From: the human T2T-CHM13v2.0 reference genome, Homo sapiens
DNA: 64,000 bases
Assembly (NCBI RefSeq): GCF_009914755.1
Contig: NC_060927.1
Reading direction: 5' to 3' (one strand)
A program made the position numbers and the translations under genes. The notes beneath the pieces are model-generated. The model ran no database searches. It was given only the letters and a program-made list of their open reading frames with translations, and was not told the DNA's origin. Below, piece after piece: positions 28,446 to 29,512 of this stretch (position 1 is its first letter; the number at the start of each line of letters is the position of its first letter).

Positions 28446-28646
28446 CAGTACTGTCCAATAAACTTTCAGCAGTGATCAGGCTATTCTCTATCTGTACTGT
28501 CCAATATGGTAGCCACCAGCCAGTGACACGTGGCAATTGAGCAGTTGAAATGTATGTCGCTAGTGCAACTGAGGAGCTGAATTTTTAATTTAATTTAAAT
28601 CTAAATAACCTCCTATGGTTAATGGCTATGGTATTGAACTATGCAG
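28446..28646. mobile_element. MER3 (hAT-Charlie)
   Basis: ctgtccaatatggtagccaccagcc...tagtgcaactgaggagctgaattttt. Confidence 0.8.
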
Positions 28647-28708
28647 TCCTGGAGCAGGGCTTTTCAAACCTGTGTGAATAGGAATCTTGGTGTTAAAATG
28701 CAGATTCT

Positions 28709-28964
28709 TCTTTTTTTTTTCTTTTTTTGAGACAGAGTTTCATCCTTGTTGCCCAGGCTGGAGTGCAATGGCACAATCTCGGCTCACTGCAACCTCTGCC
28801 TCCCGGGTTCAAGCGATTCTCCTGCCTCAGCCTCCCGAGGAGCTGGGATTACAGGCATGCACCACCACGCCCGATTTATTTTCTGTTTTTAGTAGAGACG
28901 GAGTTTCTCCATGTTGGTCAGGCTGGTCTTGAGCTCCCAACCTCAGGTGATCCGTCCACCTCGG
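28709..28964 (-). mobile_element. Alu (AluSp-like), 5'-truncated
   Basis: polyT first; diagnostic-like tttctccatgttggtcagg; stops at ccacctcgg. Confidence 0.92.
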
Positions 28965-28965
28965 A

Positions 28966-29040
28966 ATCCACACAAGTTTGAAAAGCCCTGCTCCAGAACT
29001 TCACGGTCGAATACCATAGCCACTAACCACATGAGGTTAT
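28966..29040 (-). repeat. 75 bp inverted copy of 28605-28679
   Basis: Ungapped hand alignment with about 11 mismatches (~85%), spanning the MER3/MER5A junction. Confidence 0.92.
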
Positions 29041-29389
29041 ATAAAAAGGAATGAGATCATGTCCTTTGCAGGGACATGGATGAAGCTAGAAGCCATCATC
29101 CTCAGCAGACTAACACAGGAAGAGAAAACCAAACACTGCATATTCTCACTCATAAGTGGGAGTTGAACATTGAGAACACATGGACACAGAGAGGGAAATA
29201 GCACACACTAGGGCCTGTTGAGGGGTGGAGGGTGAGGGGAGGGAACTTAGAGGACAGGTCAACAGGTGCAGCAAACCACCATGGCACACATATACCTGTG
29301 AAACAACCTGCATGTTCTGCACATGTATCCCCCCCCCCCCTTTTTTTTTTAGAAGAAATAAAATAAAAAACAAAACAAACAAAAAAAAT
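29041..29389 (+). mobile_element. L1 3' end (L1PA8-like), 5'-truncated, with A tail
   Basis: atgagatcatgtcctttgcagggacatggatgaagct...gagggaacttagaggac...gcacatgtatccc. Confidence 0.92.
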
Positions 29390-29512
29390 AAAACGCAGAT
29401 TCTGAAACAGTAGATCTGGGAAAGGGCCTGAGATTCTGCATTTTTAACAAGCTTCTCAAGGATGTTGATGCTACCAATCCCTGCTCCAGCCTTTGAGTAG
29501 CTGGGGACTGGA

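What the first reader, a model, noticed from the sequence alone, without database searches (positions are those of the whole stretch)
28605..29403. One TSD encloses antisense Alu + inverted flank copy + sense L1: possible twin priming on two different RNAs
Seen: a MER5A is split at a TT|AAAA site with a 14 bp TSD (aaaatgcagattct 28695-28708; aaaacgcagattct 29390-29403). Between the TSD copies lie, in order, a 5'-truncated Alu in antisense with its polyT abutting the left TSD, a 75 bp inverted copy of the upstream flank, and a 5'-truncated L1 whose A tail abuts the right TSD. The Alu has no TSD of its own. Known: in L1 twin priming the second-strand 3' end primes a second cDNA, normally on the same RNA. 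Inference: the bottom-strand nick primed an L1 RNA, the top-strand end (...ttct) primed an Alu RNA polyA, and the two cDNAs were joined, so two different RNAs integrated in one event. The apparent subfamilies (AluSp-like, L1PA8-like) are of broadly similar age.
Basis: partly seen in the sequence, partly recalled or inferred. Interest (0 to 1): 0.8.

Follow-up and report, generated by a model that had tools for sequence, protein, structure and literature searches.

The report
Alu and L1 sharing one insertion site
A backwards Alu, a flipped 78-base copy of the neighbouring DNA and the tail end of an L1 sit inside one pair of insertion scars, most likely one ancient jump that copied two RNAs, a kind of event already described in print.

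Summary
A 14-15 bp target-site duplication (28694-28708 / 29389-29403, one CpG>TpG difference) at a TT/AAAA site encloses 680 bp. In order these are a 20-nt T-rich tail and an antisense Alu lacking about 45 nt of its 5' end (28709-28965), a 78-nt inverted copy of flank 28602-28679 (28966-29043, 66/78 identical), and a sense L1 3' end (29041-29388: last 40 ORF2 codons, 3'UTR, A tail).

Genome-wide the inverted copy matches only itself and that flank. Neither the Alu nor the L1 has a duplication of its own. Their divergence is alike (4.8% and 4.6% outside CpG).

Best reading (about 0.65): one ORF2p event in which both 3' ends of the staggered break primed reverse transcription, L1 RNA at the bottom-strand nick and an Alu RNA tail at the top-strand end. 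The two cDNAs were joined through DNA copied from the adjacent flank. Two sequential-insertion models remain open, because no primate orthologues could be searched.

The mechanism is not new. Law & Burns catalogue 452 Alu/LINE-1 chimeras (16.8% antisense) and propose this form of twin priming. Mendez-Dorantes et al. observed two-RNA inverted insertions and flank-templated filler in cultured cells. This locus is not in the Law & Burns table. It is a new member of a known kind, of modest interest.

The parts
28602..28679 (+). Upstream flank segment that served as template for the inverted copy. Its right edge lies 15 nt from the bottom-strand nick.
   Evidence: 78-nt ungapped match, 66/78, to the reverse complement of 28966-29043. 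It is the only other match to that segment in the 3.1-Gb genome.
28694..28708 (+). Left copy of the target-site duplication (14-15 bp), preceded by GTGT(T), which gives a TT/AAAA first-strand site.
   Evidence: 14/15 identical to 29389-29403. It is one of 11 isolated such repeats among 50.7 M position pairs.
28709..28728 (-). T-rich tail (T C T10 C T7), the A tail of the antisense Alu, starting directly after the left TSD copy.
   Evidence: Read from the sequence.
28729..28965 (-). Antisense Alu body, lacking about 45 nt at its 5' end.
   Evidence: Metazoa_SRP match on the minus strand, 52 bits, below Rfam's gathering score of 70. Best-scoring genomic relatives are 89-92% identical. The 29 relatives examined continue about 45 conserved nt beyond 28965.
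28966..29043 (-). Inverted copy of flank 28602-28679. The last 2-3 nt (29041-29043) can equally be read as the first L1 bases, a microhomology.
   Evidence: and for the start of L1 homology at 29041.
29041..29388 (+). Sense 5'-truncated L1: the last 40 codons of ORF2 (29041-29163), the stop codon, the 3'UTR with a T-run + AGAAGAAA end, and an A-rich tail reaching the right TSD copy.
   Evidence: ORF2p residues 1234-1273 of 1275, E 3e-13. 39 other copies scored in the genome at 90-94%. The 3'-end type is shared with relatives and with an L1PA8A-labelled copy.
29389..29403 (+). Right copy of the target-site duplication, followed by GAAACA. The top-strand cut therefore fell at TTCT/GA.

Best explanation
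A single L1 ORF2p-mediated integration, roughly 35-50 million years ago, placed cDNA of two different RNAs into one staggered break.

Steps read from the sequence (the chemistry itself is inferred):
- The bottom strand was nicked at a TTTT/AA site, and its 3' end primed on the poly(A) of an L1PA8A-like RNA, giving 348 nt of L1.
- The top strand was cut 14-15 nt downstream, after ...GATTCT.

Inferred steps:
- That free top-strand 3' end annealed to the A-rich tail of an Alu RNA and primed a second reverse transcription, which ran to about Alu position 46.
- One of the two cDNA 3' ends was then extended for 78 nt on the left flank, which begins 15 nt from the break. This was either snap-back of the Alu cDNA onto its own strand or invasion by the L1 cDNA, and it produced the inverted flank copy.
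- The two ends annealed at 2-3 nt of microhomology and were filled in and ligated.

Which polymerase copied the flank (ORF2p on a DNA template, or a repair polymerase) cannot be told from the sequence.
For: One intact 14-15 bp TSD encloses all three parts, with the A tail at one copy and the T tail at the other.

The first-strand site is canonical, TT/AAAA.

No TSD flanks the Alu alone (longest shared word 6 nt, reached in 53 of 500 shuffles) or the L1 alone (5 nt, reached in 315 of 500).

The filler is a copy of this very locus: 2 matches in the whole genome, itself and the flank. Its template starts 15 nt from the nick. A preprint on somatic L1 insertions describes templated insertions in similar terms: templates under 250 bp, within 15 bp of the site (passage read).

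The Alu is 5'-truncated, as expected if its cDNA was joined before completion.

Divergence from the column majority of the 29 closest relatives is alike: L1 13/282 and Alu 10/210 outside CpG sites, 16/288 and 14/236 overall. The two flank copies differ at 12/78 positions, compatible within counting error.

Precedent exists. [quoted passage not shown] 452 Alu/LINE-1 chimeras are catalogued in the human genome, 83.2% of them sense, with twin priming proposed for opposite orientations (passages read). One catalogued chr4 entry shows the same head-to-head layout with the Alu A-rich tail next to the far TSD.
Against: No orthologous sequence was examined, so simultaneity is inferred from structure alone.

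Divergence dating resolves only to about +/-10 Myr. It is also biased low, because the relatives were chosen for similarity to the query.

The flank copies give a somewhat higher figure: 15.4% between copies, or about 8.6% per lineage after correction.

The top-strand site TTCT/GA is only a partial match to the endonuclease consensus.

No clear microhomology is visible at the Alu/flank-copy junction.

The locus is absent from the Law & Burns supplementary table: no coordinate prefixes 7204-7214 on chr3 and no TSD core. That pipeline has many filters, so the absence weighs little.
Confidence: 0.65

Rival explanations
1. L1 first, Alu later. An L1 insertion with a flank-templated inverted filler created [TSD][inverted flank][L1][TSD]. 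A later Alu then entered exactly at the boundary between the left TSD copy and the filler without making a duplication. It did so either by TPRT at the TTCT/AA site that this junction would have formed, or as endonuclease-independent repair of a break in the 29-nt spacer of the hairpin-prone 78-nt inverted repeat.
For: The hypothetical intermediate junction ...GATTCT|AATCC... offers a TTCT/AA site on the top strand (read). A near-perfect 78-nt inverted repeat with a 29-nt spacer would be fragile (inference). L1 insertions with flank-templated filler but no second RNA are documented. Dating cannot separate events less than about 10 Myr apart.
Against: It needs a TSD-less Alu landing to the base at the end of an intact TSD, in the one orientation that puts its tail there. 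The Alu keeps a full 20-nt tail, unlike the typical endonuclease-independent insertions, which by recall are often 3'-truncated. The left TSD copy has lost no bases. The Alu is not younger than the L1 by the divergence proxy.
Confidence: 0.17
2. Alu first, L1 later. The 14-15 bp duplication belongs to an antisense Alu inserted by ordinary TPRT at TTCT/GA. An L1 later nicked the T/AAAA at the start of the right TSD copy and integrated with a deletion of about 45 bp of the Alu 5' end instead of a duplication, picking up filler copied from the flank beyond the Alu.
For: The right TSD copy begins with (T)AAAA, a usable endonuclease site. L1 insertions with target-site deletions are known (by recall; Gilbert et al. 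2002 is cited in the papers read). Alu 5' truncation would follow from the deletion.
Against: The filler template would then lie about 290 bp from the L1 insertion point rather than 15 nt. That is unlike the described templated insertions. The TSD start at a perfect TT/AAAA would be a coincidence for the second-strand cut of an Alu. The L1 A tail would have to meet the TSD start to the base. The Alu's own first-strand site TTCT/GA is a weak match.
Confidence: 0.1
3. The composite was retrotransposed as one chimeric RNA from another locus, or the inverted segment is merely another copy of an ancient palindromic repeat rather than a copy of the flank.
For: The surrounding DNA is made of old palindrome-like repeats: inverted pairs I2, I7 and I9 and a multi-copy family.
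Against: The 78-nt segment has only two matches in the genome, itself and the adjacent flank, at 85%, and none elsewhere in the window. Independent copies of the flanking family are 75-90% alike only over its conserved core. An antisense Alu with its T tail at the 5' end of a transcript would not explain the tail meeting the TSD.
Confidence: 0.03

Closest known systems
Antisense Alu/LINE-1 chimeric insertions (Law & Burns, Cell Genomics 2026, PMC13174262; preprint 10.1101/2025.02.02.635956)
   Same: An Alu lies directly 5' of a 5'-truncated L1 inside one TSD at an ORF2p endonuclease motif, and the elements are of similar age. 16.8% of the 452 catalogued cases are antisense. The authors' model has two RT reactions on opposite ends of the break. 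One listed chr4 case has the Alu A-rich tail next to the far TSD, as here.
   Different: Here a 78-nt inverted copy of the flank lies between the Alu and the L1, and the Alu is 5'-truncated, whereas most catalogued Alus are full-length. This locus was not found in their table. Contemporaneous arrival, their defining criterion, was not testable here.
Two-RNA insertions and flank-templated insertions in L1-induced cultured cells (Mendez-Dorantes et al., bioRxiv 2024, PMC11702581)
   Same: Insertions carried two RNA-derived sequences in opposite orientation, attributed to opposite DNA ends each extended by RT from a different template. [quoted passage not shown]
   Different: Those are fresh somatic events from an induced L1, involving mRNAs and L1, and the two features are reported in separate insertions. 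Here both occur in one old, fixed germline insertion, and the second RNA is an Alu. Their supplementary figures S9 and S10 could not be read.
Classical twin priming (Ostertag & Kazazian 2001, as described)
   Same: The top-strand 3' end left by second-strand cleavage primes a second cDNA. A single intact TSD is kept, and the result is head-to-head inverted segments.
   Different: In classical twin priming both cDNAs come from one L1 RNA, and the second primer anneals internally, so there is no T tail at the left TSD. Here the second cDNA is from an Alu RNA and starts on its A tail.
Templated insertions at somatic L1 junctions (bioRxiv 10.1101/2024.08.27.596794)
   Same: A non-L1 genomic template under 250 bp, within about 15 bp of the insertion site, is copied into the insertion (22 instances; passage read).
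   Different: These were reported for tumour L1 insertions without a second retrotransposed RNA. The orientation of those fillers was not given in the passage read.

Membership tests
Endonuclease-dependent L1 TPRT insertion | Target-site duplication of about 7-20 bp flanking the insertion | tested here: met
   14-15 bp, 14/15 identical.
Endonuclease-dependent L1 TPRT insertion | First-strand nick at a TTTT/AA-like site and an A tail abutting the TSD | tested here: met
   GTGTT|AAAA lies before the left copy, and the A-rich tail 29352-29388 runs into the right copy.
Classical twin priming (5'-inverted L1) | Both inverted and direct segments derive from the same L1 RNA | tested here: not met
   The inverted segment is an Alu. 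The direct segment is L1.
Classical twin priming (5'-inverted L1) | The second primer anneals internally, so there is no T tail at the upstream TSD | tested here: not met
   A 20-nt T-rich tail follows the left TSD copy directly.
Antisense Alu/LINE-1 chimeric insertion | Alu and L1 in opposite orientation enclosed by one TSD with an endonuclease motif, neither having its own TSD | tested here: met
   A 78-nt filler lies between them.
Antisense Alu/LINE-1 chimeric insertion | Contemporaneous arrival of both parts in a multi-species alignment | not testable with these tools
   No primate genomes or alignments were available. As a proxy only, non-CpG divergence is 4.6% (L1) against 4.8% (Alu).
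Flank-templated insertion at an L1 junction | The filler is a copy of genomic DNA next to the integration site | tested here: met
   66/78 identity to 28602-28679, the only other genomic match. The template edge is 15 nt from the nick.
Endonuclease-independent (repair-type) Alu insertion | No TSD, no endonuclease site, and often a 3' truncation or missing tail | tested here: inconclusive
   The Alu alone has no TSD. But it has a full tail and sits at a TTCT/GA (or TTCT/AA) site.

The most novel reading that the evidence does not exclude
This is a fixed germline fossil in which both ends of one ORF2p-made break were poly(A)-primed on RNAs from two different elements. It would show that an Alu RNA can take over the second-strand 3' end of an L1 integration in progress, a route to Alu insertion that needs no nick of its own. 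The bridging 78-nt inverted flank copy would record DNA-templated snap-back synthesis during resolution. If general, some TSD-less, 5'-truncated Alus lying head-to-head with L1 5' ends would be products of this route and not nested insertions.
Probability: 0.55. Interest if true: 0.45.

Novelty: new member of a known kind. Interest (0 to 1): 0.33.

Why it matters
If it was a single event, the locus is a clean natural record of three steps that are otherwise inferred mostly from tumours and over-expression systems. These are second-end priming on a different RNA, copying of adjacent flank DNA, and microhomology joining. It also shows that this happened in the primate germline tens of millions of years ago.

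It adds an uncatalogued case, with a filler, to the published set of Alu/LINE-1 chimeras. It also warns that repeat annotation would read it as three unrelated features. It does not open a new question, because the mechanism and the class are already described.

Tried and rejected

Naming the flanking repeat as MER5A could not be done, because no repeat library was available. Rfam gave only sub-threshold mir-544-like matches at 29378-29468 and 29545-29664.

Continuity of the empty site in paralogues was only weakly shown. A first test of the left flank against paralogue upstream DNA scored near shuffled level. With a reconstructed empty site, 4 of 19 paralogues aligned >=15 nt to the left of the TSD.

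Dating by divergence from the majority of top hits is biased low and coarse. Two control Alus showed that the cruder top-hit identity figure (the search-table values) spans 80-84% for an older Alu and 88-90% for another.

Subfamily naming rests on one labelled copy each of L1PA8A and L1PA7. AluSp was not tested.

Two gapped pattern searches were rejected as 'bad gap'.

The RISCI paper, Kojima 2010 (one 5'-inverted Alu found, no two-RNA case in the passages read) and PMC13526784 added nothing specific.

A genome-wide scan for the same architecture was not attempted.

Full report
**What is there**

- A direct repeat, TAAAATGCAGATTCT (28694-28708) and TAAAACGCAGATTCT (29389-29403), brackets 680 bp. 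The single difference is a CpG to TpG change.
- The left copy is preceded by GTGT(T), so the first-strand site reads TT/AAAA.
- The right copy is followed by GAAACA, so the top strand was cut at TTCT/GA.
- In the whole window only 11 isolated direct 15-mers with at least 14 matches occur among 50.7 million position pairs spaced 300-1100 bp apart. Four of the 11 are one CT microsatellite.
- This pair is one of the 11, and it abuts a T tail on one side and an A tail on the other. Chance is not a serious explanation.

**The three enclosed parts**

(i) The Alu.
- 28709-28728 is a 20-nt T-rich tail, and 28729-28965 is an antisense Alu body.
- Rfam places a Metazoa_SRP match on the minus strand at 28727-28875. 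Its 52 bits are below the gathering score of 70, as expected for an Alu rather than a 7SL gene.
- The best-scoring relatives listed in the genome search are 89-92% identical (40 candidates scored of 3224).
- The 29 relatives examined stay conserved for about 45 nt beyond this Alu's 5' end, so it is 5'-truncated by about that much.

(ii) The inverted flank copy.
- 28966-29043 is the reverse complement of 28602-28679: 78 nt without gaps, 66/78 identical. Four of the 12 differences are in CpG context.
- A search of the whole 3.1-Gb assembly found two matches only, the segment itself and that flank. The window has no other match either.
- It is therefore a copy of this locus, not another member of an old repeat family.

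(iii) The L1.
- 29041-29388 is the 3' end of an L1.
- The frame 29041-29163 matches ORF2p residues 1234-1273 of 1275 in solved structures (E 3e-13).
- A stop codon, a 3'UTR and an A-rich tail follow.
- L1 homology begins at 29041 in 4 of 4 relatives inspected, so 29041-29043 can be assigned to either the flank copy or the L1. This is a 2-3 nt microhomology.
- At the Alu/flank-copy junction I see no clear microhomology.

**No private duplications**

The 30-35 nt on either side of the Alu alone share at most a 6-nt word, reached in 53 of 500 shuffles. For the L1 alone the figure is 5 nt, reached in 315 of 500. For the flank copy plus L1 it is 4 nt, reached in 447 of 500. The outer pair shares 9 exact bases, reached in 1 of 500.

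**The target**

The right flank, including the TSD, belongs to a dispersed multi-copy family: 40 scored matches at 75-90% over 57-119 nt.
- With an empty site reconstructed inside a script, all 19 paralogues examined aligned across the top-strand cut.
- Only 4 of the 19 aligned 15 nt or more to the left of the TSD. An earlier, stricter test was near shuffled level.
- That the insertion split one old element is thus plausible but only weakly shown.
- The name MER5A rests on recall and on sub-threshold mir-544-like Rfam matches.

**Ages**

- Against the column majority of its 29 closest genomic relatives, the L1 differs at 13/282 non-CpG positions (4.6%; 16/288 overall).
- The Alu differs at 10/210 non-CpG positions (4.8%; 14/236 overall).
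- These figures are biased low, because the relatives were picked for similarity to the query.
- The cruder top-hit identity figure (search tables) does have range. An older Alu in the window has top hits at only 80-84%, and another at 88-90%.
- The two flank copies differ at 12/78 positions. After Jukes-Cantor correction that is about 8.6% per lineage.
- With the 0.17% per Myr rate quoted by Law & Burns, my arithmetic gives about 34, 36 and 51 Myr. Counting errors are about 9, 10 and 15 Myr.
- The three estimates are compatible, but events closer than about 10 Myr cannot be separated.
- The L1's 3' end (a T-run followed by AGAAGAAA) is shared with its relatives and with a copy that the Law & Burns table labels L1PA8A (85%, 3 gaps). 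It is not shared with one labelled L1PA7 (79%, 22 gaps).
- This supports 'L1PA8-like' on one labelled copy of each. AluSp was not tested by name.

**Mechanism**

The simplest account is one ORF2p event.
1. The bottom-strand nick at TTTT/AA primed on L1 RNA.
2. The top strand was cut 14-15 nt downstream.
3. The top-strand 3' end (...GATTCT) primed on the A-rich tail of an Alu RNA, which puts the T tail exactly at the end of an undamaged TSD copy.
4. One cDNA end was then extended for 78 nt on the left flank, whose near edge is 15 nt from the nick.
5. The two ends were joined by short microhomology.

Whether the Alu cDNA snapped back onto its own strand or the L1 cDNA invaded the flank gives the same product, so the two cannot be distinguished. 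The polymerase is also unknown.

**Rivals**

Two sequential models remain.
- L1 first (with filler), then a TSD-less Alu at the TSD/filler boundary. That boundary would have read TTCT/AA and lay in the spacer of a fragile 78-nt inverted repeat.
- Alu first (owning the TSD), then an L1 entering at the T/AAAA of the right copy with a deletion of about 45 bp. The filler template would then lie about 290 bp away.

Each needs a duplication-less insertion landing to the base, which I judge several-fold less likely than one event. That is an inference. I put the odds at 0.65 for one event, 0.17 for L1 first, 0.10 for Alu first and 0.03 for other explanations, with the remaining 0.05 unassigned.

**What is known**

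The idea is in print.
[quoted passage not shown] - One entry seen in passing, on chr4, has the same head-to-head layout with the Alu's A-rich tail beside the far TSD.
- Mendez-Dorantes et al. (section 7 read) found nine insertions made from two RNAs in L1-induced cells. They ascribed the inverted ones to opposite DNA ends extended from different templates. They also found three insertions with DNA templated from near the site.
- A tumour long-read preprint (passages read) reports 22 templated insertions with templates under 250 bp, within 15 bp of the site.
- Classical twin priming differs: it uses one RNA and internal priming, so it leaves no T tail.

This locus was not found in the Law & Burns tables. 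No entry has a coordinate beginning 7204-7214 on chr3 (the '7213' hits shown are on chr4), and the 9-base TSD core is absent in either orientation. My hg38 position is an estimate from recalled coordinates. Their pipeline has filters that a flank-derived filler could trip, so the absence says little either way.

**Verdict**

The kind is known, so this is a new, slightly more elaborate member of it. The orthologue comparison would settle the question.

Noticed in passing
L004 (G000:C3:73629468-73629753, minus strand), about 1.5 Mb from the window: This is the closest relative of the L1 fragment in the genome: 94% over 288 nt, against 90-92% for the next 38 scored copies. It shares the T-run + AGAAGAAA 3' end. 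It may be a sibling from the same source lineage.
   Followed up: partly
window 29329-29351: A run of about 12 C followed by 10 T lies at the end of the L1 3'UTR. The T-run is a family feature in 4 of 4 relatives inspected. The long C-run is private to this copy and is probably a slippage expansion.
   Followed up: partly
window 28430-28660: An old palindrome-like element lies upstream of the target: arms around 28437-28510 and 28600-28660, with an AT-rich centre at 28585-28608. Its right arm forms most of the segment that was copied in inverted form.
   Followed up: no
window 29378-29468 and 29545-29664: Two sub-threshold Rfam matches to the mir-544 precursor family (35.9 and 20.8 bits; gathering score 66.5) fall in two adjacent copies of the flanking palindromic repeat family.
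   Followed up: no
window 8273-9086: A large TA-rich tandem array (units such as ATAGGATATATATAT) dominated the background of the direct-repeat scan.
   Followed up: no
window 58572-58586 and 58900-58914: An isolated 14/15 direct repeat (AAAAGAGTATCCACT / AAAAGAGTGTCCACT) spaced 328 bp apart lies around an Alu match (58634-58894). It is probably that Alu's own target-site duplication.
   Followed up: no
Supplementary table 4 of PMC13174262, entry chr1:86697974-86698726 (hg38): This catalogued antisense AluSx1/L1PB1 pair has a 37-bp MER45B fragment between the two 5' ends. It may be another case of genomic filler between head-to-head cDNAs, although its listed TSD is weak.
   Followed up: no
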